From Hymenobacteraceae bacterium (GTDB lineage Bacteria; Bacteroidota; Bacteroidia; Cytophagales; Hymenobacteraceae): 30,339 nt of DNA. The DNA lies in contig JANPJM010000087.1 in the NCBI GenBank assembly GCA_031425525.1, forward strand, positions 1 to 30,339, written 5' to 3'. The notes under the pieces were generated by a model. It was given only the letters and a program-made list of their open reading frames with translations. It did not search any database and was not told the DNA's origin. Made by a program: the position numbers and the translations under genes. Of the stretch, positions 4,573 through 21,705 are shown piece after piece; within the stretch, counting starts at the first letter, position 1, and each line of letters begins with the position of its first letter.

Positions 4573-4702
4573 AGGGCGGTAGATAAGTAGTCAGCCATAA
4601 GCTTTTAGCTGTAAGCCGCAAGCCAGACCATTGACTGGCAAAAAGTTACGGGGCTCGCGTTAGCAATTTACTTGTGGCGCCGTACTTAAAGGTACTACCC
4701 GG

Positions 4703-4770
4703 CCCGCAAACCCCGAAAGGGCTTTATTCCACCGCCTGGGGTTGCTACGCCAACGGCGTTGCTACCCCAG
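4703..4770. repeat. copy 2 of the intergenic repeat; core CCTGGG-GTTGCTAC-GCC-AAC-GGC-GTTGCTAC-CCCAGG (4725-4761)
   Basis: Aligns with 527-600. The inner stem has changed CCC/GGG to GCC/GGC with pairing preserved (compensatory change). Lies in the 221-bp spacer between the regulator stop (4794) and the hydroxylase start (4572). Confidence 0.7.
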
Positions 4771-4793
4771 GCGGGCGCCGGGCGCCCCCCACC

Positions 4794-5570: not shown

Positions 5571-5762
5571 AGGCAAATCTTTTTGGCTCAAACGATGAGC
5601 ATTTTCAAAACTTATTCGTACTATTGTGCCGTAAATCTACGACCAAAAGCTTCAAAACCGCAAGCAAGTTGCTGCATTTTTGAGCAATGCCTGCTTTTAT
5701 GCAGCCCAACTGCCCCCGTCGCCTACCTTAGCCCGCCCTTCCGTACTTACCCGCTCAGCCCG

Positions 5763-6173
5763 ATGCCTAACCCGTACTTCGACAAAATTCGGCAGTACCT
5801 CCACGAGTTGGGCGGTACCGTGGCAGTGGCAGACCCCGCCACCGGCGTTTTTGTGGTCAGCAAGCCCGAATTGGGCATTTACCAGCTCGTGATCGGGTGT
5901 GCCGACCCGCTGCTCATTCTGGAGCAGCACCTGCTCATCCTGCCCGAGCCGACCCTGCGGATTTACCAGCGGCTGCTGCAAAAAAACCGCGACATCATTC
6001 ACGGCGCGTTCGTGCTCGACGATACCGGCCGCCGCGTCATCTTCCGCGATACGCTCCAGATCGGTACTCTCGACCGCGACGAGCTGGAGGCGTGTTTCAA
6101 CTCGCTCGGGCTGCTGCTGAGCGAGTTTGCCACCGAACTGATTGCCTTTTCCAAGCCCACTTTCACTTCCTAA
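5763..6173 (+). CDS. small cytoplasmic protein, YbjN/DUF2170 (YjfI)-like putative sensory-transduction regulator; first gene of the PspA operon
   Basis: 136 aa, starts MPNPYFDKIRQYLHELGG. Sits 16 bp upstream of pspA in the same orientation. E. coli yjfI (DUF2170) precedes the PspA paralog yjfJ in the same way. The family assignment is by gene order and general appearance, not by a verified motif. Confidence 0.35.
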   Translation: MPNPYFDKIRQYLHELGGTVAVADPATGVFVVSKPELGIYQLVIGCADPLLILEQHLLILPEPTLRIYQRLLQKNRDIIHGAFVLDDTGRRVIFRDTLQIGTLDRDELEACFNSLGLLLSEFATELIAFSKPTFTS

Positions 6174-6189
6174 GCCTGACCCCAATCCG

Positions 6190-6906
6190 ATGAGTATTTT
6201 TTCCCGCCTTTTCAAAATCGGGCAGGCCGAAGCGCATTCGGCCGTCGATAAGCTCGAAGACCCCATCAAACTCACCGAACAAGGGCTGCGCGATTTGCGC
6301 ACCGAGTTCGACAAGGCGCTGCATGCCCTCGCCGATGTGAAGGCGATGGTGATCCGGGCGCGCACCGACGGCGAGCAGGCCCGCCAACGCGCCGCCGACT
6401 ACGAAGACAAGGCCATCCACCTGCTCCAGCGGGCGCAGCGCGGCGAGCTGGCCGCCCCCGAAGCCGACCGCCTCGCCGGCGAAGCCCTCCTCAAGAAGGC
6501 CGAACACGACGCCCACGCCACCCGCGCGGCAGCCGATCAGGAACGGTTCGCGCAGTCGGCGAACCAGCTCGATCAGAACGTGCAGCAACTCAAGGGCACG
6601 ATGGAAAAGTGGGAAAACGAGCTAAAAACCCTTAAAGCGCGCGTGCGCGTCAGCACCGCCACCCGCACGATCAACGAGCAGCTCGCGCGCCTCGATTCGA
6701 CGGGCACCATCGCGCTGCTCGAACGGATGAAGGAGCGCGTCGCGCACGACGAGGCGCTGGCGGAGTCGTACGGCGAGCTGGCGCAACGGCACCGCAACGT
6801 TGACGCCGAAATCGACCGCGCCCTGACCCAGGCGCCCGCCGACCGTGCCCAGCACGCGCTCGACGCGCTCAAAGCGCGGCTGGCGCTGCCGCCGGCCAGC
6901 GAGTAA
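6190..6906 (+). CDS. pspA: PspA/IM30 (phage shock protein A/Vipp1, ESCRT-III-like) family protein
   Basis: 238 aa, starts MSIFSRLFKIGQAEAHSAVDKLEDPIKLTEQGLRDLRTEFDKAL..., the canonical PspA N-terminus. The rest is long helices with coiled-coil character and an Ala/Arg/Glu-rich composition. Confidence 0.85.
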   Translation: MSIFSRLFKIGQAEAHSAVDKLEDPIKLTEQGLRDLRTEFDKALHALADVKAMVIRARTDGEQARQRAADYEDKAIHLLQRAQRGELAAPEADRLAGEALLKKAEHDAHATRAAADQERFAQSANQLDQNVQQLKGTMEKWENELKTLKARVRVSTATRTINEQLARLDSTGTIALLERMKERVAHDEALAESYGELAQRHRNVDAEIDRALTQAPADRAQHALDALKARLALPPASE

Positions 6907-6944
6907 CTTGACACTGTACCTGTAGGTAATAGCCAGCGTTCTGT

Positions 6945-7364
6945 ATGGGCTCTTTCAACGTATTGCTTCAATTCGCGCACCATCAGCATTCCGAAAATGA
7001 AGAACACTGGTGTACGACTCCCGAGGAAGTAACGGCGCTGTTCGATGCGTTTGACTGGGCCGGTGAAACCGATAAATCCAACCGGCTCGAACGCGTCTCG
7101 CCGACCCTCAGCGTCGAAACCCGTCAGCCGGCGGCATTGCTGTGGGTGTCATCCATCGGCGACGCGCCCAATCTGGAATTCATCTCCGAGTATACGTTTC
7201 CGGCCGATACTACCCGACTCTTTGGCTTGTGGTCGGGCTCCGGTCGCAAAACCCTGCACACCAGCTCGTTCACTTTATTTCAGGCGCGAGAAGCGGTTGC
7301 GCTGTTCACGCGCCAGGCACAAGCGGAATTACTCGCCCTCTATCATTCAGCCGGCACCCGATGA
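6945..7364 (+). CDS. hypothetical soluble acidic protein (139 aa) between pspA and the YqiJ-like gene
   Basis: ORF with ATG at 6945. Its stop TGA (7362-7364) overlaps the ATG (7361-7363) of the next gene. No recognisable motif. Confidence 0.5.
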   Translation: MGSFNVLLQFAHHQHSENEEHWCTTPEEVTALFDAFDWAGETDKSNRLERVSPTLSVETRQPAALLWVSSIGDAPNLEFISEYTFPADTTRLFGLWSGSGRKTLHTSSFTLFQAREAVALFTRQAQAELLALYHSAGTR

Positions 7365-8017
7365 CCGAACTGCTTCAAGCGGCCGTTGCGCCGCCCAACC
7401 TGCTGCCGACGGCGCTGCTGGTCTTCGTGGTGCTGTACTGGCTGTCGGTGATGATCGGGCTGGTGGGGTCGGATGCGCTCGACCTGCACCACGACTTTGC
7501 GCACGATGTGGGGCACGACGTGGGCCACGACCACCCCGGAACGCACGGCGGCCTCGGCACCGACTGGCTCAACAACGCGCTGGCGTTCTTCAATCTGGGA
7601 CGGGTACCGCTGATGTTCTGGTTGTCGTTCGTGGCGCTGCCGCTCTGGGTGGGCAGTATTCTGGTGAACTACGAACTGGGCAATACGTCGGGGCTGGTTG
7701 GGCTGGCGCTGCTGCTGCCGCTGCTGCTGGTGAGCCTGTTCGTGGCCAAAATCCTGACGCTGCCGTTCGTCAAGCTGTTTGCGGCGATGGAAAAAGACCA
7801 CGGCGCCGGCGCGCAGCCCATCGGCAAGGTGTGTACCGTGGTGTTGCCCGCCACCCACGCGCTGCTCGGCCAGGCCAGTATTCGCCTCCCCGACGGCGCG
7901 CCGCTCACGCTCAACGTGAAAGCACTCTCGCCGACCGCTACCTTTCGCAAAGGCGACCAAGCGCTCGTGATCGATTTCGACGCCCAGCGCCGGTGCTATC
8001 TGATTGAGCCCTATTGA
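7361..8017 (+). CDS. YqiJ/DUF1449-like inner-membrane protein with a C-terminal NfeD-type OB-fold (flotillin partner)
   Basis: 218 aa with an N-terminal TM helix, a His/Asp-rich segment DLHHDFAHDVGHDVGHDHPGTHGG, further TM helices, and a C-terminal beta-rich GKVCTVVLPATHALLGQASIRLPDGAPLTLNVKALSPTATFRKGDQALVIDFD resembling the NfeD OB-fold. It is immediately upstream of a flotillin gene, as in E. coli yqiJ-yqiK. Confidence 0.7.
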   Translation: MTELLQAAVAPPNLLPTALLVFVVLYWLSVMIGLVGSDALDLHHDFAHDVGHDVGHDHPGTHGGLGTDWLNNALAFFNLGRVPLMFWLSFVALPLWVGSILVNYELGNTSGLVGLALLLPLLLVSLFVAKILTLPFVKLFAAMEKDHGAGAQPIGKVCTVVLPATHALLGQASIRLPDGAPLTLNVKALSPTATFRKGDQALVIDFDAQRRCYLIEPY

Positions 8018-8019
8018 TC

Positions 8020-8051
8020 GCTGATGTAGCTGATTGTCTGATTCCGCTGAT
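8020..8051 (+). promoter_or_regulatory. four tandem (G)CTGAT motifs at 9-bp spacing (8020, 8029, 8037, 8046), with additional TGAT motifs at 8001 and 8015
   Basis: Read directly: gCTGATgtaGCTGATtgtCTGATtccGCTGATttg. Lies in the 140-bp spacer before the flotillin gene. Confidence 0.4.
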
Positions 8052-8102
8052 TTGTTGAGTTGCCACATCGAACCCTACTAAACCGTCTGCTTCCTGCGCT
8101 GC

Positions 8103-8132
8103 GGGCGGGCACAAGGCCCGCCCCTACTTTTT
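8103..8132 (+). promoter_or_regulatory. GC hairpin (GGGCGGGC-acaag-GCCCGCCC) followed by CTACTTTTT; either an internal intrinsic terminator/attenuator or a Bacteroidota -7 promoter box (TAnnTTTG-like) for the flotillin gene
   Basis: 8-bp perfect stem followed by a T-run, 26 bp upstream of the flotillin ATG at 8158. The same hairpin+TACTTTTT arrangement recurs at 10333-10362. Confidence 0.45.
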
Positions 8133-8157
8133 CGGTTATCTTCCCCAATTCCCTCCA

Positions 8158-10332
8158 ATGATTGCCCAACTTTCGTGGGCGGCGCTGATCATCATCGGCC
8201 TGCTGCTCCTCGGTTTTCTTTCGATTCTGGTGCGCATGTACCAGAAAGCCGTGCAGGGCGAAGCCCTGGTGCGCACCGGCCTCGGCGACACGAAAGTGTC
8301 GTTTTCGGGGATGTTCGTCATTCCCATCATTCACCGGTTGGAGGTGATGGATATTACCCTCAAATCGATGGTGATTGCGCGTCACGGGGCCGAGGGGTTG
8401 GTGTGTAAAGACAACCTGCGGGCCGACGTGAAGGTCAATTTTTTCGTGCAGGTCAATAAAACGCCCGGCGATGTGATTCACGTCGCGCAGAGCATCGGCT
8501 GCCGGCGCGCTTCCGACCCGGCGGCGCTCGAAAACCTCTTCGACGCCAAGTTTTCCGAAGCGCTGAAAGCCGTCGGTAAACGGTTCGATTTTATCGAGCT
8601 GTATAATTCCCGCGAAGAATTCAAGCAGGAAATTTTGCGCGTCATCGGCACCGACCTCAACGGCTACGTCCTCGACGACTGCGCGATTGATTACCTGGAG
8701 CAAACGCCGTTGTCGGCGCTGAATGAAAATAATATTCTGGACGCCGAGGGCATCAAGAAAATCATTGCGCTGACGTCGGAACAGAAGATTCAGGCCAACC
8801 AGATCGAGCGCGACAAACAGCGCACGATTAAAAAACAGGACGTGGAAGCGCAGGAAACCATTTTGCAGCTCGAAAAGCAATTGGTGGAAAATCAGGAAAA
8901 GCAGAAGCGCGAAATTGCCAATATCAAAGCGCGCGAGGCGGCCGAAACCGAGAAAGTCATTCAGGAAGAACGGTTGAAGAGCGAGCGCGCCAAGATTCAG
9001 ACCGACGAAGAATTGCAGGTGGCCGGGCAAAACCGCGACCGGCAGATCATCGTGGCCGAGCGGAACAAGGAGCGCACCGACGCCATCGAAACCGAGCGGG
9101 TGGCCCAGGCCAAAGCGCTGGAAGCCAACGAGCGCGAGCGCATCGTGGCGCTGGCGCAGATCGAGAAGGAAAAAGCCCTCGAAGAAGAGCGCAAGAATAT
9201 TCAGGGCATCATCCGTGAGCGGATTACGGTGGAAAAAGCCACCGTGCAGGAGGAGGAGAAAATCAAGGATACCCGCGCCCAGGCCGGCGCCGAGCGCGAA
9301 AAAATGGTAGCGCTCACAGCCGCCCAGCAACTGAACCAGGCCGCAACCATCGCGCTGGTCGGGCAGGCCGAAATGGGCAAGCAAGCGGCCGAGTTCCGGG
9401 CGAAACAGGCGTTGATCGATGCCGAAGCCGAGCGCGGCACCGCCGAGCAGCACGCGCTGGCCGTGAAAGTGCTGGCGGAGGCAGAGGCGAGCAAAACGTC
9501 GGCCGTGGGGCTGGCCGAGGCCCAAGTGATGCAGGCCAAAGCGGGCGCGCGCCAGAAGGAAGGCGAAGCGGAAGCGCACGTCATGCAGCTTACGGCGACG
9601 GCCGAGGCGCAGGCGATTCAGGTGAAAGCGGTGGCGCAGGCCGAGGCCGACGAGAAGTTGGGGATGGTGGCGGCGAAAGTCAATCGCGAAAAAGGGCTCG
9701 CCGACGCCAGCATCATCGAAGCGCGCGCCGACGCCGACCAGAAGAAAGGTTTTGCCGAAGCCGCCGTGAGCGAGCAGAAATTTGCGGTGGAAGCCAAAGG
9801 CATCGAGGCGAAAGCCGACGCGATGAAGAAGCTCGACGGGGTGGGCAAAGACCACGAAGAGTTCAAGCTCCGGCTCGACAAGGAGAAGTCGGTGGAGCTG
9901 GCGCAGATCAGCATCCAGAAGGATATCGCTGCCGCGCAGAGCGCCGTTATCGGCGAGGCCCTCAAGGCGGCGAAAATCGACATCGTGGGCGGCGAAACGA
10001 TGTTCTTCGACCAGATCATCGGCTCGATCACGAAGGGTAAGATGATCGACCGGGCGGTGCAGAACAGCGAGGTGCTGGGCACGGTGAAGGACGCGTTTTT
10101 CGGCCCCGGCGCGGGCGGCGACGGCGACTTCAAAACCAATATGCGGCGGTTCGTCGAGCAGTTCGGCCTTAAGTCCGACGACATCAAGAACCTGAGCATT
10201 TCGGCCCTGATGCTGCAAATGATGCAAACCACCGACTCCGACAGCACGCGTTCCGCGCTCCGCCAACTGCTCGACACGGCCACCACGCTGGGGCTCGCCG
10301 ACAAGCCCGTGCGGACGATTGATTTGACGTAA
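8158..10332 (+). CDS. flotillin-family protein (SPFH/band-7 domain, YqiK-like) with a very long coiled-coil region; 724 aa
   Basis: N-terminal TM MIAQLSWAALIIIGLLLLGFLSILV, then an SPFH-like domain (VRTGLGDTKVSFSGMFVIPIIHRLEVMDITLKSMVI...), then hundreds of residues of E/K/A/Q-rich heptad-like repeats typical of flotillins. Confidence 0.85.
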   Translation: MIAQLSWAALIIIGLLLLGFLSILVRMYQKAVQGEALVRTGLGDTKVSFSGMFVIPIIHRLEVMDITLKSMVIARHGAEGLVCKDNLRADVKVNFFVQVNKTPGDVIHVAQSIGCRRASDPAALENLFDAKFSEALKAVGKRFDFIELYNSREEFKQEILRVIGTDLNGYVLDDCAIDYLEQTPLSALNENNILDAEGIKKIIALTSEQKIQANQIERDKQRTIKKQDVEAQETILQLEKQLVENQEKQKREIANIKAREAAETEKVIQEERLKSERAKIQTDEELQVAGQNRDRQIIVAERNKERTDAIETERVAQAKALEANERERIVALAQIEKEKALEEERKNIQGIIRERITVEKATVQEEEKIKDTRAQAGAEREKMVALTAAQQLNQAATIALVGQAEMGKQAAEFRAKQALIDAEAERGTAEQHALAVKVLAEAEASKTSAVGLAEAQVMQAKAGARQKEGEAEAHVMQLTATAEAQAIQVKAVAQAEADEKLGMVAAKVNREKGLADASIIEARADADQKKGFAEAAVSEQKFAVEAKGIEAKADAMKKLDGVGKDHEEFKLRLDKEKSVELAQISIQKDIAAAQSAVIGEALKAAKIDIVGGETMFFDQIIGSITKGKMIDRAVQNSEVLGTVKDAFFGPGAGGDGDFKTNMRRFVEQFGLKSDDIKNLSISALMLQMMQTTDSDSTRSALRQLLDTATTLGLADKPVRTIDLT

Positions 10333-10362
10333 GCGCGGACATTCTGTCCGCGCTACTTTTTC
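10333..10362 (+). terminator. hairpin GCGCGGACA-ttc-TGTCCGCGC followed by TACTTTTTT; intrinsic terminator/attenuator between the flotillin and giant ATPase genes (alternatively a -7 promoter box)
   Basis: Perfect 9-bp stem with a 3-nt loop and a T-tract, starting directly after the flotillin stop (10330-10332). The motif ends 6 bp before the ATG at 10368. Confidence 0.5.
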
Positions 10363-10367
10363 TCCGA

Positions 10368-13300
10368 ATGGAAACCCCTCCTCCCCCGCAGCTCGAAGGC
10401 GGCACGTACGAAATTCTGCGCGCCCGCCTGACCAAGAGCGGCGCCGACCTGCGCGCGCGCCTCACGGCCCTCAATGCCGAGCGTAAGCAGGTATTCGGGG
10501 CCGTCGATACGCGCCTGATCGGCACGGGCCGGATCACCACCGAACACCATTGCGTGCCCTGGAATATGGTGCCGGTGGGCGGGCGGTTTCTGTTCGGTTT
10601 CAACGTGGTACTGGGGCTGAAAACGGAGGTTGAGCTGAGCGACGTATTCGGTATCTACGACTACACCGACCACGATTTCCGCCCCCAGCCGCTCGATGCG
10701 TTGCGCGACCCCCGGTTCGAGGAGGAGTTTCGGAACCTCTACCGCTTCTACCGGCAGACCCAGTTTTCGGCCTTTGCCGTGCGCGGGCCGCACCTGTTCA
10801 TGGTGTTCCGGGTGGGCAAGAGCGCCACGGATGTCAAGACGTTCAAGTGGCTGATCGGCGCCGACGACCGCCTGACCTACCTCGACAACCGCTCCGACCA
10901 CGAGTACACCTTTCCGCCGGCGCAGGAATTCAGCTGGAAGCGCGCCACCCGCGATATGCAGCGCGGCGGGCGCCACCCGCACGTCTCGATTGAAGACCGC
11001 TGCTTCGTGGAAACCGTCGGCGGCGACCTCACGATCAAAGTCGAAGACAATACCGAAATCGGCCAGGGCATCCTCTCCGAGCCGGTCGAGCAGAAAGATC
11101 AGTCGCTCGATGACGCCGAGATTCACTACGCCGTAGTCGGGCATTTGGTGCTGCTCAAGATTCGGCCGTATCAGGAAGCCGCATTTCGCCATTTTTTGTA
11201 CAACGGCAAGACCCGGCAAGCGCGCCGCCTCGATGCGCTGGCCGACGCCGTGCAGTTGCTGCCCGACGGTCAGGGGTTGATTTTCCCCGGCGGCGTGGCC
11301 TTGCAGAACGGCGAAGGCAAACAGTTTGAGAACGCCCCCGCCGACACGGTTTTCGAGCGGCGCGTGGCCTCGCCCAACGGCGAAGACTACCTGTACTGCT
11401 TCTATCAGCGCACCAGCGGGCAGTATTGGCTGCTGAGCTACAACCGCATCGAGCAGCGCGTGGAGGCGCCGATTGCCTGCCACGGCTTCGCCCTCTTCGA
11501 CAACGGCGAGCTGTGCTTTTTCCGCGCCGAAGAAGAGCCGCGCAAGCACCACGCCGTGCAAATCTGGCAGACGCCCTACACCGCGCCCGACTACGAGTTA
11601 CCCGTCACGCGCGACTCGTACCTCTACAAACTCGGCAACAAGGAGATCGTGCGGGCGCTCGCCGAAGGGCAGGAAGTGCTGACCCTTACGGCCAAGGAAG
11701 ACAGCTACGCCGGCCTGTACCTCGACCTCGGCCGCCTCACCACCACCCTGCTCGACGCCTACCACTGGCTCACCGAACCCGCCGCCCAGACGCTGGCCGA
11801 GCCGTTGCGCGAGATTCGGCAGACGGCGCTGGCCGCCGTCGAGGAGTTCGATAAGGTGCAGCGGATCCGCAGCGCCACGGCCGCCGAAACCACCCTCGTG
11901 CTGACCCGCGCCACCGACCTGAGCGCCCGCCTGAAGCGCGCCGCGCCCGACACCGTGGCCGCCTACGTGCAGGCGCTGGCCGAGCTGCGGGCCGCGCGCG
12001 GCGAGGTGGTGGGCCTACGCGAACTGCGCTACGCCGACCTGCCCGCCATCGAGCGGGCCGCCACCGAATTGGAACTGCTCACCCAGGTGACGGCGAACCA
12101 GACGGTCGAATTCCTGCTCCGGCCCGACGCCCTCGCGCCCTACGAGCAGCGCGTGACGGCCATTGCCGACGGCATCGAGGGGGTGCAGAAAACGGTGGAA
12201 GCCGATGCGCGGGAGCAGGAAATCGGGGCGGTGTCGGGCGAGTTGGAACTGCTGATCGATGTAGTGGGCGGGCTGCCCATCCCCGACCCCACCCAAACCA
12301 CCGCCATCATCGAGCGGCTGTCGGCGATCTACGCCCGCTTCAACCAGATCAGGGCCGCCCTCAAGCGGCGGCGGCAAAGTTTGGCGGGCACCGAAGCCCA
12401 GGCGCAGTTTGCCGCCCAGCTCCGGCTGCTCGATCAAACGCTCGTCAATTACCTCGATCTGAGCGATACACCCGCCAAGTGCGACGAGTACCAGACCCGT
12501 CTGCTGGTGCAGCTCGAAGAAATCGAGGGGCGTTTTCCGGAGTTCGAAGGATTTTTGGAGCGCCTCACCGAGAAGCGCGAAGCCGTCCTCGAAGCGTTCG
12601 AGACGCGCAAGGCGGCCCTGGTGGCGGCCCGCAATCAGCGCGCAACGGCCCTGCTGCAAGCCGCCGAGCGCCTACTGACCGCCGTGCGCAGCCGGGTAGC
12701 GCGCCTGACCACCGCCGCCGAGCTGAACGGCTACTTTGCCGCCGATGTGCTGGTGGCGAAGGTGCGGCAGACGGCCGCCGAGCTGCTCGCCCTCGGCGAC
12801 CCGGTGAAGGCCGACGACGTGCAGGGGCGCCTCAAAACCCTGCGCGACGAGAGTCTGCGCCAACTCAAAGACCGCACGGAACTGTACACCGATGGCGGGC
12901 AGGTGATCCGGTTCGGGCCGCACGCCTTCACCGTAAACCAGCAACCGCTGGAACTCACGACGGTCTTGCGCGACGAGGTACTGCACTTTCACCTCACGGG
13001 CACCAACTTTTTTCAGCCCATCGCCGACCCCGCCATCGAGGCTGCCCGCGACCTGTGGGATCAGCCGCTACCGTCGGAAAACGCCCACGTGTACCGCGCC
13101 GAGTGGCTGGCGTGGCAGTTGCTGGAAGCAGCGGCCCACCCCGTCCCCGCCGACCCCGAACGCGGCACGCCGGCCGTGCTGTCGCTCCCGGAACTGGCGC
13201 ACCTCACGCCCCCCGAACTGCTGGCCTACGTGCAGACCGCGATGGCCCCGCGCTACCCCGAAGGCTACCTCAAGGGTGTCCACGACCACGACGGCGCCCT

Positions 13301-15293
13301 ACTCCTCGAAGCCCTCGTGCGCCTGGCCCGCACCGCCGACCTGCTGCGCTACCCCGCCGAGGCCCGCGCCGCCGCCGCGCTGTGGTGGGCGCAATTTGCG
13401 CCGCCCGAGCGCCGCGCGGCCTGGGAACTGCGGTTGCGCGGCCTCGGGCAGTTGCAGCGGGTGTTCCCCGGCGCCGATGCCAGTGCGGCGCTACGCGCCG
13501 AAATCGGGGCCGAGCTGGCGGCCTTCCTCACGCAAACCCAGCTTTTCGACCCGGCCGCCGTGGAAGAAGCGGCCGATTACCTTGTCACGGAGCGCGCGCG
13601 CGGCACCGCGTTCATCATCGCCGCCGAAGCCGCCGAACTGAGCCGCCTGTTCTGGCAGACCGTGCGCGAGCGCCAGGCCGATGCCGTCTTCGATGAGTCG
13701 ATGGCGGAGTTGGCCGCGCAACCCGCCGCCCGCTTTGCGCTGGCGCGCGAGTGGCTCGGCGCCTTTCTCGCCCAGCAACCCGCCGACGCACCGGCCGGCG
13801 CCCTGCGCCCGTGGCTGAGCGAGGCGGCATTGTTGCTCGTCACCGATTCCTTTGACGCCGCGCACGTCGTGAGCGTGCCCACGCGCCTCACGCTCGACGG
13901 TTTGCAGGGTACGCACCCGCGCATCCACGAACGCCGTTACGAGCTGGATTTTCCGGAGTTCCGCCACCGGCTGCGGCATTTCGGGCGCGTTACGGCGCCC
14001 CGGTTTGCCCACTTCACGGCCCTCAAAAAGGAGCGGCTTGCGCACGCCGCCGAGGCGCTGCGGCTCGCCGATTTTCAGCCGCGCGTGCTGTCGTCGTTCG
14101 TGCGCAACCGCCTGCTCGACCAGGTGTACCTGCCGCTGATCGGGGCTAACCTCGCCAAACAGATCGGCACGGCCGGCACCGACAAGCGCACCGACCTGAT
14201 GGGCCTACTGCTGCTCATCTCGCCGCCGGGCTACGGCAAAACCACGCTCATCGAGTACGTGGCGGCGCGCCTGGGGCTGGTGTTCGTGAAGGTCAGCGGC
14301 CCGGCGCTGGGGCATCACGTTACGGCTGTAGACCCCGAACAGGCGCCCAACGCCGGGGCCCGCGACGAGCTGCGGAAGCTGAACCTGGCGTTCGAGATGG
14401 GCGACAACGTGCTGATTTACCTCGATGACATCCAGCACTGCAACCCCGAGTTTCTGCAAAAATTCATCTCCCTCTGCGACGCCCAGCGCCGCATCGAGGG
14501 CGTGTGGGAGGGCCGCCCGCGCACCTACGATTTTCGGGGCCGCAAAGTGGCCGTCGTGATGGCCGGCAACCCCTACACCGAATCGGGCGACGTGTTTCGG
14601 CTGCCCGATATGCTCGCCAACCGCGCCGACATCTACAACCTCGGCGACATCATCGGCACGTCCGCCGACGCCTTCCGGCTTTCTTACCTCGAAAACAGCC
14701 TCACGGCGAACCCCGTTTTGCGGCGCCTCGCCACCCGTAGTCCCGCCGACTTTTACCCGATTCTGCGCCTCGCCGAAAGCGCCGATCAGGGGGGCGCCGC
14801 CGAGCCGCTCGACCTCGAAGCGAATCACTCGCCGGAAGAAATAGCGGAGTACGTGGCCGTGTTGCGCCACCTGCTGATCCTGCGCGACGCCGTGGTGCAG
14901 GTCAATGAGGCGTATATCGCGTCGGCGGCTCAGGCCCAGGATTACCGCACCGAGCCGCCCTTCCGGCTGCAAGGCTCCTACCGCAACATGGCCAAGCTCG
15001 CCGAGAAGGTGCAGCCCCTGCTCAACGCCGCCGAGCTGCAAGGGCTCCTCGCCGACCACTACGAAAGCGAGGCCCAGACCCTTACCACCGCCGCCGAAGC
15101 CAACCTGCTCAAGCTCCGCGAGCTACTCGGTTGGCAAACCCCCGCCGACACCGCGCGCTGGGCCGAAATCAAGGCGACGTTTCAGCACAATCTGCGCCTG
15201 AGCAGCGGCGGCCAAAACGCCCAGATGCTCGAGCAGCTCACGAGCATTGCCGGGGGGCTGGCGGGGATTCGGGAGGTGTTGGGGCGGGGGTAG
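10368..15293 (+). CDS. giant (1641 aa) multidomain protein: unknown N-terminal domain, about 800 aa helical/coiled-coil middle, C-terminal MoxR/dynein-type AAA+ (AAA_5-like) ATPase module
   Basis: Uninterrupted 4926-bp ORF. Walker A LLLLISPPGYGKTTLIEY (about 14228-14245), Walker B NVLIYLDDIQH (about 14409-14440), and sensor-1/Arg-finger region VAVVMAGNPYTESGDVFRLPDMLANRADIY. The middle is Ala/Leu/Glu/Arg-rich helical sequence. The antisense strand also has long open frames, as expected for this composition. Confidence 0.8.
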   Translation: METPPPPQLEGGTYEILRARLTKSGADLRARLTALNAERKQVFGAVDTRLIGTGRITTEHHCVPWNMVPVGGRFLFGFNVVLGLKTEVELSDVFGIYDYTDHDFRPQPLDALRDPRFEEEFRNLYRFYRQTQFSAFAVRGPHLFMVFRVGKSATDVKTFKWLIGADDRLTYLDNRSDHEYTFPPAQEFSWKRATRDMQRGGRHPHVSIEDRCFVETVGGDLTIKVEDNTEIGQGILSEPVEQKDQSLDDAEIHYAVVGHLVLLKIRPYQEAAFRHFLYNGKTRQARRLDALADAVQLLPDGQGLIFPGGVALQNGEGKQFENAPADTVFERRVASPNGEDYLYCFYQRTSGQYWLLSYNRIEQRVEAPIACHGFALFDNGELCFFRAEEEPRKHHAVQIWQTPYTAPDYELPVTRDSYLYKLGNKEIVRALAEGQEVLTLTAKEDSYAGLYLDLGRLTTTLLDAYHWLTEPAAQTLAEPLREIRQTALAAVEEFDKVQRIRSATAAETTLVLTRATDLSARLKRAAPDTVAAYVQALAELRAARGEVVGLRELRYADLPAIERAATELELLTQVTANQTVEFLLRPDALAPYEQRVTAIADGIEGVQKTVEADAREQEIGAVSGELELLIDVVGGLPIPDPTQTTAIIERLSAIYARFNQIRAALKRRRQSLAGTEAQAQFAAQLRLLDQTLVNYLDLSDTPAKCDEYQTRLLVQLEEIEGRFPEFEGFLERLTEKREAVLEAFETRKAALVAARNQRATALLQAAERLLTAVRSRVARLTTAAELNGYFAADVLVAKVRQTAAELLALGDPVKADDVQGRLKTLRDESLRQLKDRTELYTDGGQVIRFGPHAFTVNQQPLELTTVLRDEVLHFHLTGTNFFQPIADPAIEAARDLWDQPLPSENAHVYRAEWLAWQLLEAAAHPVPADPERGTPAVLSLPELAHLTPPELLAYVQTAMAPRYPEGYLKGVHDHDGALLLEALVRLARTADLLRYPAEARAAAALWWAQFAPPERRAAWELRLRGLGQLQRVFPGADASAALRAEIGAELAAFLTQTQLFDPAAVEEAADYLVTERARGTAFIIAAEAAELSRLFWQTVRERQADAVFDESMAELAAQPAARFALAREWLGAFLAQQPADAPAGALRPWLSEAALLLVTDSFDAAHVVSVPTRLTLDGLQGTHPRIHERRYELDFPEFRHRLRHFGRVTAPRFAHFTALKKERLAHAAEALRLADFQPRVLSSFVRNRLLDQVYLPLIGANLAKQIGTAGTDKRTDLMGLLLLISPPGYGKTTLIEYVAARLGLVFVKVSGPALGHHVTAVDPEQAPNAGARDELRKLNLAFEMGDNVLIYLDDIQHCNPEFLQKFISLCDAQRRIEGVWEGRPRTYDFRGRKVAVVMAGNPYTESGDVFRLPDMLANRADIYNLGDIIGTSADAFRLSYLENSLTANPVLRRLATRSPADFYPILRLAESADQGGAAEPLDLEANHSPEEIAEYVAVLRHLLILRDAVVQVNEAYIASAAQAQDYRTEPPFRLQGSYRNMAKLAEKVQPLLNAAELQGLLADHYESEAQTLTTAAEANLLKLRELLGWQTPADTARWAEIKATFQHNLRLSSGGQNAQMLEQLTSIAGGLAGIREVLGRG

Positions 15294-15603
15294 CTTGGGG
15301 GCAATCCCAAGCGGTGGGATACAAGTCGTTTGTAGCCTCACGCCCACTGCCGACCTTTGAAGCACAGGTGCTGCACTCCAACCATCTGCTGGCCTGCGGT
15401 GGGCAACAAGCCGATAAGCTGGCTGTGCCCAACAGGAGGCGCGGCAGCGATCTGATATATTAAAAATTGCTGCGCTATATAAAACGAACACACGGCTGAC
15501 CGCCCCACCAATGACCCACAGAGCAGATCGCCCTGATTGACGCGCAACGGTTGGGCCAGCGGAACCTGCTGGTGGCGGCTCACTCGCCTATCTTGCACCG
15601 CAT

Positions 15604-16953
15604 ATGAGCGCCACGAACTACCACCTGAATCTTTTCCGGCACTATGCCGCCAACACCACCGACGAGGTGCTGGAAAACAACCTGACCCGCGCGCTGGCCC
15701 TGTGCCTGATGCACGATCCGGTTTTCCTGTACGCGTTCTTGGAAGAGATTCTGACCCGCGACGCTTTACATCAGGAGCTTCACTTGCTGAATGATGATGC
15801 GAGCCGAATTGTGATTGACGTCCAGCGGCCGGTCAACCAACTGGCGGCTTGTGAGACGTTGTACGCGGTAGCGCTCACCGCTGGCCCACTCGACGCGACC
15901 GATTATGAGGCTGCGTCAGCCCACACCACAGACGCGCCGATCACCGACCTGACCATTCGGCTCAACGATGTGTTGATTTTGGTGGAAGTGAAACGAACCG
16001 GCGAAGACTGTCTCGGCCAGCTCAAACAACAAGTTGGCGTTTACCGGCGTGAAGTGGCCGCCAAAGAAGGCACGACTGATGTTGCCCCTACCGTGCGAAC
16101 CTTGAGTTGGGCGCGTACCACGCGCCTGGCGACCGATCTACACCACTTTCGTCAATTAGCGGGCGCACCTCAACCGTTTACCGCCGATCTGGTGGAGTTG
16201 ATCCGCTCCAATTACCCTACTTGGGACGAAGCGCTTTACCTCAGAGCGATTCAGTTTCGGACTCCCGAGGGCAAAATCAAGTGGGAAGACATCAACCGCC
16301 GCCTGCACGACATTCAGTATCGCACCTTCGGCGACCGAATGAAGTGGTTTCACGACCGGGTATCGATGCCCATTGATCAGCCGTGGGCCAGCGAAGTCAT
16401 TAGCCAGCCCGATTGGGACGAGGCCGAACAACGCGCCTACATCGCGTTACAGGTATGGCCCGGCAACACGAAAGGTCAAGGATGGCCGATTTACAGCCGT
16501 TCGCTCGATTGGACCACGCGCGATTCGCTGGAAATCGACGGGAAGCGTTACCCACTCGTCGTTATTCAGCAGTTCAAGTTTTCGCACTTCAACAAGTTCA
16601 TCGGCGAGTACGATATGGACGAGTTGCCGGTGCAGTACGTGCCCAATTTTCGTAGCTGGGCGGCTTACGAGAAGTATTCGGGCCAGAAGTGGCGCGATAG
16701 CTGGCCTCAACTCGAAGCGATGCTCGACGCCGATACCGGCGGCCACTGGCGGCAAGTCTATCAGATGTGGCAGGACAAGTTCATCAACTCCAACCGCAAT
16801 TACTGCAATCTGTCGCTGGGCTTCTATGTGAAGGTGCGACTTCCTTACGAAGAGTTGCGCGCCCTTGACTCCGGGCCGGAGCAGTGGGTTGCGGTGGGCA
16901 GTAAGTTTAAAGCCGCCATTCAGGCATTGGTCGATCTAGTAGAAGGACGGTGA
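15604..16953 (+). CDS. hypothetical protein (449 aa) with an N-terminal PD-(D/E)xK (RecB/Cas4-like) nuclease signature; lower GC than flanks
   Basis: ...APITDLTIRLNDVLILVEVKRTGEDCLGQLKQQVGVY: D ... E-V-K followed by a Q...Y motif, as in restriction-endonuclease-like folds. GC is about 55% versus 65-70% for neighbours. A 310-bp spacer separates it from the giant gene. Confidence 0.55.
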   Translation: MSATNYHLNLFRHYAANTTDEVLENNLTRALALCLMHDPVFLYAFLEEILTRDALHQELHLLNDDASRIVIDVQRPVNQLAACETLYAVALTAGPLDATDYEAASAHTTDAPITDLTIRLNDVLILVEVKRTGEDCLGQLKQQVGVYRREVAAKEGTTDVAPTVRTLSWARTTRLATDLHHFRQLAGAPQPFTADLVELIRSNYPTWDEALYLRAIQFRTPEGKIKWEDINRRLHDIQYRTFGDRMKWFHDRVSMPIDQPWASEVISQPDWDEAEQRAYIALQVWPGNTKGQGWPIYSRSLDWTTRDSLEIDGKRYPLVVIQQFKFSHFNKFIGEYDMDELPVQYVPNFRSWAAYEKYSGQKWRDSWPQLEAMLDADTGGHWRQVYQMWQDKFINSNRNYCNLSLGFYVKVRLPYEELRALDSGPEQWVAVGSKFKAAIQALVDLVEGR

Positions 16954-17070
16954 GTTACGCCTAAGTTGGGTTGAAAATCCAGACAGCGTAAAGCACCTTT
17001 CCCGCCCACACTAGCCTTATAACACCCCGGAACCCGAAAATAGCCAACGCTGTCCCCGACAAATAGCCCT

Positions 17071-17478
17071 GTGGAAACCATCTTCGAACTGCTGATACCG
17101 CGCCGGCCCAAGTCGCTGCAAGCCAAGAACGCCAAGTTGCAGCAGTGGAAAAGCTACGTGCGCGACTTGGCCCGTACCGAATGGAACGGCCCACCGCACG
17201 TAGCGCCGGCTTTCCGGGTAACGCTGGTGTATTTATGCGATGTGGACGCGGCCGACATCGACAACATCATCAAGCCGATTCAGGATGCGCTGGTGGGCGT
17301 GGTGATGCCCGACGATAATTTGGTAAGCGATGTTGACAGTCACGGCCGGCTACTGGATCAGGCGTTCGACCTGACCGATTTGCCTGCCTTGCTCGTTCAA
17401 GGCGCCCAGGCGCAACGGGAATGCGTTTACGTGCGCGTCTTGGCGGGTGCGGTTTTACCTCTCACGCACTTTCTTTAA
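17071..17478 (+). CDS. rusA: RusA-family crossover junction endodeoxyribonuclease (Holliday junction resolvase)
   Basis: 135 aa from a GTG start: ...LIPRRPKSLQAKNAKLQQWKSYVRDLA...CDVDAADIDNIIKPIQDALVGVVMPDDNLV. This matches the RusA LPWPPSNN...DLDNLxKxxxDAL...DDxQV motif arrangement. Confidence 0.7.
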   Translation: METIFELLIPRRPKSLQAKNAKLQQWKSYVRDLARTEWNGPPHVAPAFRVTLVYLCDVDAADIDNIIKPIQDALVGVVMPDDNLVSDVDSHGRLLDQAFDLTDLPALLVQGAQAQRECVYVRVLAGAVLPLTHFL

Positions 17479-17485
17479 TACTACA

Positions 17486-18142
17486 ATGTCCTCAAAAGAA
17501 CAACACGATACGAAGCTGTTAGACCTAGCGCGGCAGTACGAAGCCCGTGGCTATACGGTGCAGGTGGAGCCAGCCCGCGAAGCGGTGCCCTTCGACCTCG
17601 GTGGCTACCGGCCCGATCTGCTGGCCGAGAAGGGAAGTGAACACCTCTTGGTTGAATTGAAAACGGGTGGGCCACTCCCGATCAACTACCTGCAACAAGT
17701 GGTGGAGACGGTGCGCCAGCACTCGGGGTGGCGCTTCATTTTGGTGAATGATGCCAACCCCTCGCTGGGCCTTGACACGCGGTTGCTGCCCGCCGCCGTG
17801 GTGGAGGAGAAGGCCAACCGCGCGGGCGTCCTGTTGGAGAACGGCGATGTGGAAGCGGCTTTTCTGCTGCTCTGGACCGTGTTAGAGGCACTACTTCGCC
17901 AACACGCCGAAGCGATTGGCCTACCCTTGCAACAGCAGCAACCGCGAACGCTCATCAACTACCTGTATTCCGAAGGCGATTTGGGAATGCCCCAATACGA
18001 CGTACTGATGGCCGCCCTGCCGGCACGCAACCAGCTTGCCCACGGGTACGAAGTGCCGAACTTGCCGCCACTGGCGCGCGACCTACACCGCACCCTGCGC
18101 GAGTTGCTGGACGAATGGGTCTCTACGCCCACCGTTGGGTAG
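17486..18142 (+). CDS. hypothetical protein (218 aa) with an N-terminal PD-ExK nuclease motif and a C-terminal HEPN-like R-x4-H motif
   Basis: GYRPDLLAEKGSEHLLVELKTGG (PD ... E-L-K) near the N-terminus. The C-terminal helical region contains ALPARNQLAHGYE (R-N-Q-L-A-H, i.e. Rx4H). The ATG at 17486 is preferred over the 17447 start, which overlaps the rusA end. Confidence 0.5.
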   Translation: MSSKEQHDTKLLDLARQYEARGYTVQVEPAREAVPFDLGGYRPDLLAEKGSEHLLVELKTGGPLPINYLQQVVETVRQHSGWRFILVNDANPSLGLDTRLLPAAVVEEKANRAGVLLENGDVEAAFLLLWTVLEALLRQHAEAIGLPLQQQQPRTLINYLYSEGDLGMPQYDVLMAALPARNQLAHGYEVPNLPPLARDLHRTLRELLDEWVSTPTVG

Positions 18143-18693: not shown

Positions 18694-20145
18694 TCAAAAC
18701 TCCAGCGTCACCACCGTGCCGCGCCCCGGCGCCGACTGCACCTGAATCGAGCCGCGATGGAGCAGCATGATCTGCTTGCTGAGGGAAAGGCCGATACCGC
18801 TGCCGGTTTGCTTGGTGGTGAAGAAGGGTACGAAGATGCTGTCGAGAACGTCGGGGGGCATCCCGACGCCGTTGTCGCGGAGCTGTACCGCAACCCGACG
18901 GGTGGGCGGCGGGGTAGCGTCGAGGAGGGTGGCCGAGAGCGTGATGCGCGGGTCGGGTACGCCGGTTACGGCGTCGAGGGCGTTGAGGAGCAGGTTGAGC
19001 AGCACCTGTTCGAGGAGGCTGGGATCGGCGGCGACGGTAAGCGTCGGGTCGAGCAGGTGCAGGGTGAGCGTGGTGCCTTTCTCGCGCAGGGTGGGCTGCA
19101 TCAGGCGGTGCAACGCGGCGAATACCTCGCCGAGCGGTACGGGGCGTAATTCGGGCACCGCCACTTTGCTCAGGTTGCGGTACGTGGTGGCGAACCGCAG
19201 CAGTCCGGCGCTACGCCGCTTGATGGTGTCGATGCCGAGGCGGAGGTCGTCGAGCAGCTCGGTGGCGACTTGCGTGGAGGTTTCCGTGGAGGCTTCGGCG
19301 GGAGCGTCAGTAGCGCCATCGGTAGTCCCATCGGTGGCGGCGGCCAGGCTCGCTTGCAGGGTATCGGCCAGCGACGCGATGGGCGCCACCGAGTTCATCA
19401 GCTCGTGGGTCATCACGCGCAGGAGGCGCTGCCAGGCGTGAGCCTCGTTTTCGTCGAGCGCGGCGCTGATGTTTTGGCAAGCGATGAGCTTGTACCGGGC
19501 GCCGTCGGCCTGAAAAACGGACGCCGAGAAGAGCAGCTTCAGGGGCGCCGTATCGGGCTGCACGGTCAGCACCACGCGCTCGCCGGGGGGCCGCGCGCGC
19601 AGGCTTTCGGCCAGTTCCGGGTACCGAAAAGCCAGCCCCTTGAGCGATTTGAGCGTCGGCAGCCGGAGCTGCTGCTTGAGCGTATCGTTGGCCCACAGGA
19701 CGACGCCGGTGGCCAAATCGTAAGAGAAAATGCCCGTATCGACCAGCTCCAGCACGTTTTGCAGGTAGTGGTGCTGCGTTTCGCGCTCGCGGCTGATGGT
19801 CTTGAACGTGCCGATGATGCGGTTGAAATCGTCGCGCACGGCGCGCACGTCGGGCGGGGTGTGTTCGGGGGTGAAGTAGCGCGAGAAATCGCGGTAGCGC
19901 ACGGCATCGGCAAACTGCCCGACTTCGCGCCGCAGCCGCGTCTGGTGCCGGTAGAGGGCGTACACCACGGCGCCCGCGCCCCCGGCCGCCCCCACGGCCG
20001 CGCCGTAGCGCCCGGTCGCCACGCACCCGGCCAGCACCAGCAGCGCGGCCACCAGCCCAGCCAGCTTGACGCCGATGCCGCCCCAGGCGTGCGCCCAGCC
20101 GTTGCGCCAGCGGCGGGTAAAGTGGCCGAAGCGGCTAGAGGTCAT
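18694..20145 (-). CDS. sensor histidine kinase (two closely spaced N-terminal TM helices, PAS-like region, HisKA, HATPase_c)
   Basis: H-box MTHELMNSVAPI. The C-terminal ATPase region has the NLLLNALDAV N-box and G-boxes DNGVGMP and GSGIGLSLSKQI. The start ATG at 20143-20145 overlaps the RR stop (20135-20137) by 11 nt. Confidence 0.85.
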   Translation of the reverse strand: MTSSRFGHFTRRWRNGWAHAWGGIGVKLAGLVAALLVLAGCVATGRYGAAVGAAGGAGAVVYALYRHQTRLRREVGQFADAVRYRDFSRYFTPEHTPPDVRAVRDDFNRIIGTFKTISRERETQHHYLQNVLELVDTGIFSYDLATGVVLWANDTLKQQLRLPTLKSLKGLAFRYPELAESLRARPPGERVVLTVQPDTAPLKLLFSASVFQADGARYKLIACQNISAALDENEAHAWQRLLRVMTHELMNSVAPIASLADTLQASLAAATDGTTDGATDAPAEASTETSTQVATELLDDLRLGIDTIKRRSAGLLRFATTYRNLSKVAVPELRPVPLGEVFAALHRLMQPTLREKGTTLTLHLLDPTLTVAADPSLLEQVLLNLLLNALDAVTGVPDPRITLSATLLDATPPPTRRVAVQLRDNGVGMPPDVLDSIFVPFFTTKQTGSGIGLSLSKQIMLLHRGSIQVQSAPGRGTVVTLEF

Positions 20146-21651: not shown

Positions 21652-21705
21652 GGTCGGGCGGTCGCGCTTTTTCGCAATTTCCTGATTATCAGCGCATAAA
21701 AATAC

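What the first reader, a model, noticed from the sequence alone, without database searches (positions are those of the whole stretch)
10368..15293. 1641-aa giant protein: novel N-terminal domain + about 800-aa coiled-coil + C-terminal AAA_5-type ATPase
The ATPase motifs (GYGKTT Walker A, IYLDD Walker B, MAGNP sensor-1, LANRADIY Arg region) place the C-terminal 200 aa in the MoxR/dynein/midasin/McrB clade. That clade usually occurs as 300-aa stand-alone proteins, not at the end of a 1600-aa polypeptide. The N-terminal roughly 450 aa (HHCVPWNMVPVGGRFLFGFNVVLG...FGIYDYTD...) resemble nothing I recognise. An alternative reading is a McrB-like NTPase working with the PD-(D/E)xK protein encoded 310 bp downstream, i.e. 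a McrBC-like defence pair. The 35-bp coupling to the flotillin gene argues for a membrane role instead.
Basis: partly seen in the sequence, partly recalled or inferred. Interest (0 to 1): 0.8.

Follow-up and report, generated by a model that had tools for sequence, protein, structure and literature searches.

The report
Flotillin-linked giant MoxR-type AAA+ ATPase
The 1641-residue gene is real, but it is an ordinary member of a large, already catalogued and experimentally unstudied family of cytoplasmic AAA+ ATPases that nearly always sit just after a bacterial flotillin gene, so it most likely remodels membrane-scaffold or stress assemblies and is not a McrBC-like nuclease partner.

Summary
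The ORF 10368-15293 (+) and every quoted motif are confirmed.

- **N-terminus:** it is not unrecognisable. It is Pfam DUF3686 (E=7.6e-183), modelled as a divergent beta-propeller.
- **Middle:** it is not an 800-aa coiled coil. It has about 420 aa of spectrin-like helical bundles (including DUF7902), a small beta domain and a 250-aa globular alpha domain.
- **Family:** thousands of full-length homologues exist in at least 8 phyla, named "DNA repair ATPase" by NCBI without support.
- **Neighbours:** among 80 related loci, a YqiK-type flotillin lies directly upstream in 63 of 66 and a YqiJ/NfeD-like protein in 56 of 63. PspA plus a CesT-like protein occur in about a third. The downstream 449-aa putative nuclease occurs in 0 of 80.

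This operon was described by comparative genomics in Ravi et al. 2024. The likely Pseudomonas aeruginosa counterpart is the bacABCDEF cluster.

Best reading: an ATP-driven remodeller of flotillin/PspA membrane assemblies. It is a new member of a known, uncharacterised kind, of moderate interest.

The parts
10368..15293 (+). Whole gene: 1641-aa cytoplasmic DUF3686-DUF7902-AAA+ protein (NCBI name 'DNA repair ATPase')
   Evidence: ORF. Pfam domains. Homologues. No hydrophobic segment that could span a membrane.
10446..11765 (+). DUF3686 (aa 27-466). An N-terminal helix (aa 13-43) is followed by a beta-rich core (aa 49-401) of about 6-7 four-stranded sheets, a divergent beta-propeller.
11622..12881 (+). 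Helical rod, aa 419-838: 14 helices of 10-51 residues joined by short loops (spectrin-like bundles). Contains DUF7902 (aa 587-670, nt 12126-12377).
12903..13844 (+). Small beta domain (aa ~846-905) plus a globular all-alpha domain (aa 910-1159) with the conserved motif EGYxKGVHDxD (aa 965-975). No Pfam model covers this part.
   Evidence: AlphaFold pLDDT is mostly above 90. No Pfam hit even at E<=10. G966, G970, H972 and D975 are invariant in 71 sequences.
14175..14657 (+). AAA+ alpha/beta core: Walker A SPPGYGKTT (14220-14246), Walker B LIYLDD with invariant D1353-D1354 (14412-14429), pre-sensor-1 beta-hairpin (aa ~1376-1387), sensor-1 N1401 in MAGNPYTE (14559-14582), arginine-finger candidate R1419 in LANRADIY (14613-14636).
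14664..15290 (+). Helical lid and C-terminal extension (aa 1433-1641), with a sensor-2 candidate R1539 in the invariant QGSYRNM (14970-14990).
   Evidence: AlphaFold helices. R1527, E1529, P1530 and Q1535-R1539 are invariant. Assigning R1539 as sensor 2 is an inference from the GxSxR-type motif of MoxR proteins (own knowledge).
8158..10332 (+). Partner gene: 724-aa YqiK-type flotillin (SPFH2) with one N-terminal membrane anchor, a long Ala/Glu/Lys-rich helical region and a distinct conserved C-terminal ~185 aa.
   Evidence: hhalign of 33 homologues vs E. coli YqiK: probability 100%, E=5.8e-43, 385 columns. No Pfam hit. TM segment at aa 1-19. The C-terminus has no similarity to YqiK. It lies upstream of the AAA+ gene in 63 of 66 loci.
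7361..8017 (+). Partner gene: 218-aa YqiJ/NfeD-like membrane protein with 3-4 TM segments and a C-terminal soluble domain.
   Evidence: Pfam YqiJ_N E=0.0078. BLASTP vs E. coli YqiJ E=0.008, collinear over 173 aa. TM segments. Present in 56 of 63 loci.
5763..6906 (+). CesT/Tir-like chaperone gene (5763-6173) and PspA/IM30 gene (ATG at 6190, ends 6906), at the head of the same-strand cluster.
   Evidence: Pfam CesT_Tir_1 E=4.5e-48 and PspA_IM30 E=1.4e-38. Co-located in 18-20 of 62 loci, all those named to phylum being Bacteroidota.
10332..10364 (+). Terminator-like hairpin (10-bp stem, then ACTTTTTCTC) that fills the 35-nt spacer between the flotillin gene and the AAA+ gene.
   Evidence: Scan. 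RNAfold -20.1 kcal/mol. A hairpin of at least 8 bp lies within 60 nt of the flotillin stop in 30 of 70 loci, against 5.7% of shuffles.

Best explanation
The gene encodes an orthologue, in a Hymenobacteraceae genome, of the widespread DUF3686-DUF7902-AAA+ family. It is a soluble cytoplasmic protein. Its parts, in order, are a divergent beta-propeller head, a ~420-aa spectrin-like helical rod, two further globular domains and a single C-terminal MoxR-type AAA+ module. Proposed mechanism: the AAA+ modules form a ring, and the rods hold the propeller heads out as adaptor arms. The machine uses ATP to assemble, disassemble or otherwise remodel the membrane-bound YqiK-type flotillin / YqiJ(NfeD) scaffold encoded immediately upstream. 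In Bacteroidota it would also act on the PspA (ESCRT-III-like) polymer and its CesT-like chaperone encoded in the same cluster. The whole set would be an envelope-stress and membrane-maintenance module. The invariant Asp-Asp Walker B motif (instead of Asp-Glu) suggests a slow, switch-like ATPase rather than a fast processive unfoldase. Shown here: domain composition, fold affinities, absence of TM segments, family size and spread, and gene linkage. Inferred: ring formation, the propeller as a docking head, flotillin/PspA as the substrate, and slow hydrolysis.
Confidence: 0.6

Rival explanations
1. McrBC-like defence pair: the AAA+ module is a McrB-type GTPase that activates the PD-(D/E)xK-like protein encoded 310 bp downstream (15604-16953).
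Against: The 449-aa protein, RusA and AHJR have no homologue next to the AAA+ gene in any of 80 loci. Nucleotide similarity to the closest relative (L001) ends at 15284, nine bases before the end of the AAA+ gene. No downstream gene family is conserved. MoxR proteins are clearly better fold matches than McrB. The position of McrB's NxxD motif is an invariant NPYTE. The 449-aa protein hits nothing in Pfam, NCBIfam, PADLOC, PHROGs or PDB.
Confidence: 0.02
2. DNA repair ATPase, as the NCBI and Pfam names say.
For: Only the database names 'DNA repair ATPase' and 'ATPase involved in DNA repair', plus weak P-loop-level hits to RuvB.
Against: The RuvB hits cover about 40 residues around the P-loop and fall far below the family cut-offs (22 vs 282 bits). 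No DNA-binding domain was detected. No repair gene is conserved nearby. The conserved neighbours are membrane proteins.
Confidence: 0.03
3. Anti-phage or abortive-infection module: flotillin, the NfeD-like protein and the AAA+ protein sense or execute a membrane response to infection.
For: PA3728-PA3732 are up-regulated in all phage-infected P. aeruginosa samples. The Vibrio copy sits among RNA-repair, HipA toxin-antitoxin and TelA genes. One Hymenobacter copy is plasmid-borne. In this window variable nuclease-like genes lie next to the gene.
Against: There are no meaningful PADLOC hits (best E=6e-4 to a P-loop stretch). Many named Hymenobacter species each carry a 64-69% identical copy, and the gene order is stable, which looks like a vertically inherited housekeeping or stress gene. 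Induction by phage is also what a general envelope-stress (Psp) system would show.
Confidence: 0.12
4. Classical MoxR-type maturation chaperone that inserts a cofactor into, or activates, a specific enzyme together with a VWA/MIDAS partner, as CbbQ-CbbO or NorQ-NorD do.
For: The best structural matches are CbbQ and NorQ.
Against: No VWA gene or any other enzyme gene is conserved within 10 kb in 80 loci. The single VWA gene seen, in Myxococcus, is on the opposite strand and not recurrent. The protein carries about 1250 extra N-terminal residues that MoxR proteins lack. The Walker B sequence differs (DDIQH).
Confidence: 0.05
5. Membrane-coat-like scaffold: a propeller followed by a helical rod, as in clathrin, IFT-A and coatomer proteins, whose polymerisation on membranes is gated by the ATPase.
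For: Foldseek lists IFT-A, the RZZ complex and the clathrin heavy chain over 880-1350 columns.
Against: TM-scores are 0.08-0.14, so only the domain order is shared. The helical part matches spectrin-type bundles, not alpha-solenoids.
Confidence: 0.05

Closest known systems
[quoted passage not shown] 2024, PMC11237479); Pfam DUF3686 + DUF7902; NCBI 'DNA repair ATPase'
   Same: Same domain set, same length class and same gene neighbourhood: CesT-like, PspA, YqiJ-like, flotillin, then the AAA+ gene.
   Different: Nothing essential; this is an orthologue. This window has an extra 139-aa ORF between pspA and the yqiJ-like gene, and a lineage-specific nuclease-like islet downstream.
P. aeruginosa bacABCDEF (PA3732-PA3727), with BacE = PA3728/PA14_16190
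   Same: The gene order matches: CesT-like (DUF2170), PspA, short NfeD, flotillin PaFlo3, then an 'ATPase'. That operon is one transcript, is linked to biofilm formation and is induced by phage.
   Different: Homology of PA3728 to this protein is inferred from the literature and gene order, and was not shown here. The Pseudomonas operon is sigma54-dependent. No -24/-12 element lies upstream of the cluster in this window, where a divergent HTH/S24-like regulator is conserved instead.
MoxR-family AAA+ proteins (CbbQ, NorQ, RavA) and the wider AAA_5 group (midasin, dynein)
   Same: They are the best fold matches. They share the pre-sensor-1 hairpin, an Asn-Pro sensor-1 motif and an Arg after sensor 1.
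   Different: MoxR proteins are ~300-aa stand-alone proteins with a VWA partner. Here about 1250 aa are fused at the N-terminus and no VWA partner is conserved. Walker B is DDIQH instead of DE-type. Sequence similarity to any solved AAA+ is limited to the P-loop.
McrB (GTP-specific AAA+ of McrBC restriction)
   Different: No NxxD motif, no McrC-like or nuclease partner, no N-terminal DNA-binding domain, and a weaker fold match than MoxR.
Functional analogues: Vps4 with ESCRT-III, and FtsH inside HflK/C SPFH cages (own knowledge plus PMC11237479)
   Same: An AAA+ machine encoded or acting together with a polymeric membrane scaffold (an ESCRT-III-like PspA, or an SPFH protein).
   Different: A different AAA+ clade. 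There is no MIT or protease domain. No interaction has been demonstrated for this family.

Membership tests
DUF3686-DUF7902-AAA+ family ('DNA repair ATPase') | N-terminal DUF3686 domain | tested here: met
   PF12458 E=7.6e-183, aa 27-466, full model length.
DUF3686-DUF7902-AAA+ family ('DNA repair ATPase') | Central DUF7902 and a single C-terminal AAA+ module with PPGYGKTT at aa ~1250-1320, in a 1600-1900-aa protein | tested here: met
   PF25472 E=8.6e-26. Walker A at 1285-1293. Same layout in 19 of 20 diverse members.
DUF3686-DUF7902-AAA+ family ('DNA repair ATPase') | Gene directly downstream of a YqiK-type flotillin and a YqiJ/NfeD-like gene | tested here: met
   True in the window. True in 63 of 66 and 56 of 63 related loci.
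AAA+ superfamily | Walker A, Walker B, sensor-1 polar residue, Arg finger, and an alpha/beta core followed by a helical lid | tested here: met
MoxR / AAA_5 group (clade with pre-sensor-1 hairpin and helix-2 insert) | Pre-sensor-1 beta-hairpin between alpha3 and beta4 | tested here: met
   Strands at fragment residues 187-191 and 194-198 (aa ~1376-1387) in the model.
MoxR / AAA_5 group (clade with pre-sensor-1 hairpin and helix-2 insert) | Helix-2 insert | tested here: inconclusive
   A conserved 18-residue loop with a short helix lies between beta2 and alpha2 (fragment residues 122-139). The model shows no beta-hairpin there.
MoxR / AAA_5 group (clade with pre-sensor-1 hairpin and helix-2 insert) | Closest structural neighbours are MoxR, midasin or dynein modules | tested here: met
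   CbbQ 17.1, NorQ 16.5, midasin 14.8, dynein 14.4; the next classes score 13.8 or less.
MoxR family proper | Conserved VWA/MIDAS partner gene; ~300-aa stand-alone protein | tested here: not met
   No conserved neighbour other than flotillin, YqiJ-like, PspA, CesT-like and HTH genes in 80 loci. The protein is 1641 aa.
McrB / McrBC | GTP-specificity motif NxxD after sensor 1 | tested here: not met
   The sequence is an invariant N1401-P-Y-T-E.
McrB / McrBC | Adjacent McrC-type PD-(D/E)xK endonuclease partner | tested here: not met
   The downstream 449-aa protein occurs in 0 of 80 loci, and no downstream gene is conserved.
Flotillin / SPFH2 (for the upstream partner) | Homology to YqiK/FloT through the SPFH domain and the following coiled coil, an N-terminal membrane anchor, and an NfeD-like gene upstream | tested here: met
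   hhalign E=5.8e-43 over YqiK residues 23-422. TM segment at aa 1-19. YqiJ-like gene upstream. Pfam Band_7 itself does not hit.
Known anti-phage defence systems (PADLOC) | Significant match of any component to a defence-system model | tested here: not met
   Only P-loop-level hits, E=6e-4 to 0.013, for the AAA+ protein. None for the flotillin or the 449-aa protein.

The most novel reading that the evidence does not exclude
This family is the long-missing dedicated ATP-driven assembly and disassembly factor of bacterial flotillin (SPFH2) cages. A ring of MoxR-type modules with an attenuated DD Walker B would reach the cage through six spectrin-like arms tipped with propellers. These would dock on the family-specific C-terminal domain of the partner flotillin. 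In some lineages c-di-GMP would provide an input through a C-terminal PilZ domain. The machine would thereby couple flotillin microdomains to PspA/ESCRT-III-type membrane repair.
Probability: 0.3. Interest if true: 0.7.

Novelty: new member of a known kind. Interest (0 to 1): 0.35.

Why it matters
How bacterial flotillin scaffolds are built, turned over and connected to PspA-type membrane repair is still unclear. A conserved AAA+ machine encoded next to flotillin in hundreds of species from at least eight phyla is the obvious candidate regulator, yet no member has been studied biochemically. The finding itself adds no new kind of system, because the family is in Pfam and the operon was described in 2024. 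This analysis sharpens the hypothesis in five ways:
- The primary partner is flotillin/NfeD (95% linkage), not PspA (about 30%).
- The motor is MoxR-like, with an invariant DD Walker B.
- The 'DNA repair' name has no support.
- There is no nuclease partner.
- A third of the protein (aa ~840-1240 and the lid region) still has no family model.

Tried and rejected
- **Sigma54 control, as in P. aeruginosa bac:** no TGGCAC-N5-TTGC-like site lies upstream of the cluster, and the window has fewer matches than shuffles. The nearby sigma54 regulator more likely serves the efflux operon.
- **ORF 7045-8007 (320 aa):** taken at first as the gene between pspA and the flotillin gene, but its translation is Arg/Pro/Ala-rich wrong-frame sequence. 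The real gene is 7361-8017.
- **PDB searches by sequence:** the N-terminal 1200 aa gave nothing. The family profile gave only P-loop hits.
- **Direct proof that PA3728 belongs to the family:** three homologue searches and a cluster look-up never listed a P. aeruginosa protein. The link remains literature-based.
- **Literature searches:** 'DUF3686' and 'PF12458' gave 0 papers. 'Flotillin + NfeD + AAA+ ATPase + operon' gave only an FtsH review.
- **The 449-aa downstream protein:** no hit in Pfam, NCBIfam, PADLOC, PHROGs or PDB.
- **Other features in the window:** Rfam, tRNA and tandem-repeat scans found nothing.
- **HD-domain reading of the 'GVHDHD' motif:** considered, but there is no Pfam hit and no upstream conserved His, so it was not pursued.

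Full report
**1. Observation**

A single ORF runs from the ATG at 10368 to the stop at 15293 on the + strand and encodes 1641 aa.
- The upstream gene stops 35 nt before the ATG. The next + strand ORF begins 310 nt after the stop.
- The gene is real. Full-length homologues at 55-91% identity have E=0, and the N-terminus aligns with the family from the first Met.
- The closest relative is a contig of a Hymenobacteraceae metagenome-assembled genome: 91% protein identity and about 86% nucleotide identity. The window therefore comes from a Hymenobacter-like member of the Bacteroidota.

**2. Domain content**

- **N-terminus.** It is Pfam DUF3686 (PF12458, aa 27-466, E=7.6e-183), so it is not unrecognisable.
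- **N-terminus and middle, model.** An AlphaFold model of aa 1-1200, built on a 71-sequence alignment, has mean pLDDT 82.5. It shows:
  - a helix at aa 13-43;
  - a beta-rich core at aa 49-401, made of about 6-7 four-stranded sheets (pLDDT about 90);
  - 14 helices of 10-51 residues at aa 419-838, separated by short loops (pLDDT 50-84);
  - a small beta domain at aa ~846-905;
  - a well-predicted globular all-alpha domain at aa 910-1159.
- **Unannotated part.** Residues ~841-1200 have no Pfam model even at E<=10. They carry an invariant motif, EGYxKGVHDxD.

**3. The ATPase**

- The model of aa 1190-1641 has pLDDT 86.7. It shows a canonical AAA+ core with a beta-hairpin inserted between alpha3 and beta4, the pre-sensor-1 hairpin.
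- At the sequence level, only the P-loop region matches any solved AAA+ protein.
- Across 71 sequences from many phyla the following are invariant: Walker A PPGYGKTT, Walker B DD (D1353-D1354, in DDIQH), sensor-1 N1401 (NPYTE), R1419, and a lid motif QGSYR.
The McrB-specific NxxD motif is absent.
- From my own knowledge, a DD Walker B also occurs in the slowly hydrolysing, oligomerisation-dedicated D2 ring of NSF. On that basis I suggest a slow, switch-like ATPase. This was not tested.

**4. Family and distribution**

- Two searches gave more than 3800 and more than 5900 homologues.
- DUF3686 has 725 representatives at 50% clustering. The full-length ones are 1600-1900 aa.
- The family covers Bacteroidota, Planctomycetota, Verrucomicrobiota, Desulfobacterota, Clostridia, Kiritimatiellota, Gammaproteobacteria (Vibrio, Halopseudomonas, Hahella), Myxococcota, Actinobacteria, Acidobacteriota and Armatimonadota.
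- NCBI names these proteins 'DNA repair ATPase'. Nothing found here supports that name.

**5. Neighbourhood**

The correct gene calls upstream, all on the + strand, are:

| Coordinates | Gene | Evidence |
|---|---|---|
| 5763-6173 | CesT/Tir-like | |
| 6190-6906 | PspA | |
| 6945-7364 | orphan ORF, 139 aa | |
| 7361-8017 | YqiJ/NfeD-like membrane protein | |
| 8158-10332 | flotillin-like, 724 aa | |

- The 724-aa protein has no Pfam hit, but it is homologous to E. coli YqiK: hhalign probability 100%, E=5.8e-43.
- Linkage in 80 related loci:

| Gene | Loci with the gene / loci with enough flank |
|---|---|
| Flotillin, directly upstream, same strand | 63 / 66 |
| YqiJ-like | 56 / 63 |
| PspA | 20 / 62 |
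| CesT-like | 18 / 62 |
| Divergent HTH regulator | 19 / 62 |

- PspA, the CesT-like gene and the HTH regulator occur together; every such locus that is named to phylum is Bacteroidota.
- No other gene family recurs, and nothing downstream is conserved.
- Pfam-annotated contexts in Halopseudomonas, Myxococcus, Vibrio and Streptomyces show the same three-gene set.
- The giant protein has no hydrophobic segment. The flotillin has one N-terminal anchor.

**6. The nuclease alternative**

- The 449-aa downstream protein and the RusA and AHJR-like genes after it have no counterpart beside the AAA+ gene in any of the 80 loci.
- Nucleotide similarity to the closest relative stops at 15284, nine bases before the end of the AAA+ gene.
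- The 449-aa protein matches no family or structure.
- A McrBC-like pairing is therefore refuted as a property of this gene family.

**7. Literature**

- Ravi et al. 2024 (PMC11237479) describe this operon. [quoted passage not shown] They also note shorter flotillin-YqiJ-AAA+ operons that are more widespread. They propose chaperone-like assembly of membrane complexes.
- P. aeruginosa bacABCDEF has the matching order: DUF2170/CesT-like, PspA, short NfeD, flotillin PaFlo3, PA3728 'ATPase', then one further gene. It is one transcript with a sigma54 promoter, is linked to biofilm formation and is induced by phage infection.
- That PA3728 belongs to this family is a strong inference that I could not verify directly.

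**8. Mechanism**

- My committed reading is a cytoplasmic ring of MoxR-type modules. Spectrin-like arms would present propeller heads to the flotillin/NfeD scaffold on the inner face of the membrane.
- ATP binding and slow hydrolysis would drive assembly, disassembly or client exchange of that scaffold. Where PspA is present, the polymer encoded in the same cluster would be a second target.
- The linkage statistics make flotillin the primary partner, rather than PspA.
- Identity and architecture are near-certain. I put the mechanism at about 0.5, which gives the combined confidence of 0.6.

**9. Verdict**

- The protein is a new member of a known, catalogued and experimentally uncharacterised family. 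It is not a new kind of system.
- Interest is moderate (0.35). The family is a good target for anyone working on bacterial flotillins or Psp systems, but this window adds no new category.

Noticed in passing
window 10332-10364 and 8103-8133: Two strong terminator-like hairpins followed by T-rich tracts lie in the spacers within the cluster: flotillin/AAA+, and yqiJ-like/flotillin. A hairpin of at least 8 bp follows the flotillin stop codon in 30 of 70 related loci, against 5.7% of shuffles. This could attenuate read-through and set a high flotillin-to-ATPase ratio.
   Followed up: partly
window 15604-18142: A lineage-specific islet lies downstream of the AAA+ gene. It holds a 449-aa orphan with a D...EVK string and no family or structure match, a RusA-like resolvase and an AHJR-like restriction-endonuclease-fold protein. 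It is absent from the 91%-identical relative and from all 80 related loci.
   Followed up: partly
proteins P0365, P0368, P0374 (also P0350, P0359, P0372, P0375, P0376, P0378, P0394): Some family members, apparently Myxococcota and relatives, carry an extra PilZ domain at the extreme C-terminus after the AAA+ module. This hints at c-di-GMP control in those lineages.
   Followed up: partly
window 4794-5591 (- strand): An HTH_3 plus S24-peptidase-like regulator is transcribed divergently from the CesT-PspA-...-AAA+ cluster. It is conserved in that position in 19 loci, nearly all of which also carry PspA. The LexA-type catalytic Ser and Lys positions are not conserved, so it is probably a non-cleaving repressor or sensor.
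   Followed up: partly
window 8158-10332: The flotillin partner escapes Pfam Band_7 completely, although hhalign to E. coli YqiK gives E=5.8e-43. Its last ~185 residues are strongly conserved among AAA+-linked flotillins and show no similarity to YqiK. This makes them a candidate docking region.
   Followed up: partly
window 6945-7364: A 139-aa ORF fills the 455-bp gap between pspA and the yqiJ-like gene. It has no homologue in any of the 80 related loci and no family hit, so it may be an insertion or not a gene.
   Followed up: partly
window 12888-13967 (aa 841-1200 of the giant protein): A confidently modelled beta domain plus alpha domain has no Pfam model. It carries the invariant motif EGYxKGVHDxD (aa 965-975). 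Its function is unknown.
   Followed up: partly
window 18694-27980: A histidine kinase and a sigma54-dependent response regulator (- strand, 18694-21568) sit back to back with a HlyD/MacB-type ABC/TolC-like efflux operon (21750-27980). A TGGCAC-N5-TGCC-like site lies at 21706-21720 just upstream, so this regulator probably serves the efflux operon and not the flotillin cluster.
   Followed up: no
window 1023-4621 (- strand): A DUF6999 protein lies next to an 884-aa fusion of a KAS III/thiolase-like domain with a haem-oxygenase-like iron enzyme domain. This is possibly a small secondary-metabolite or lipid-modification pair.
   Followed up: no
L081 (Halopseudomonas) 823-15331: The yqiJ-like/flotillin/AAA+ gene set lies about 1.3 kb from a divergently transcribed DUF2170-PspA-K+ channel-DUF2491-DUF350-DUF1190-glutathionylspermidine synthase operon (rhomboid and DUF6471 genes lie between them). 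Two different PspA-type neighbourhoods described in the literature are thus close neighbours here.
   Followed up: no
L084 (Vibrio chagasii) 2022-16303: In Vibrio the three-gene set sits between an RNA ligase/kinase/R2K RNA-repair-like cluster and HipA toxin-antitoxin and TelA genes. This is a variable-island context unlike the Bacteroidota one.
   Followed up: no
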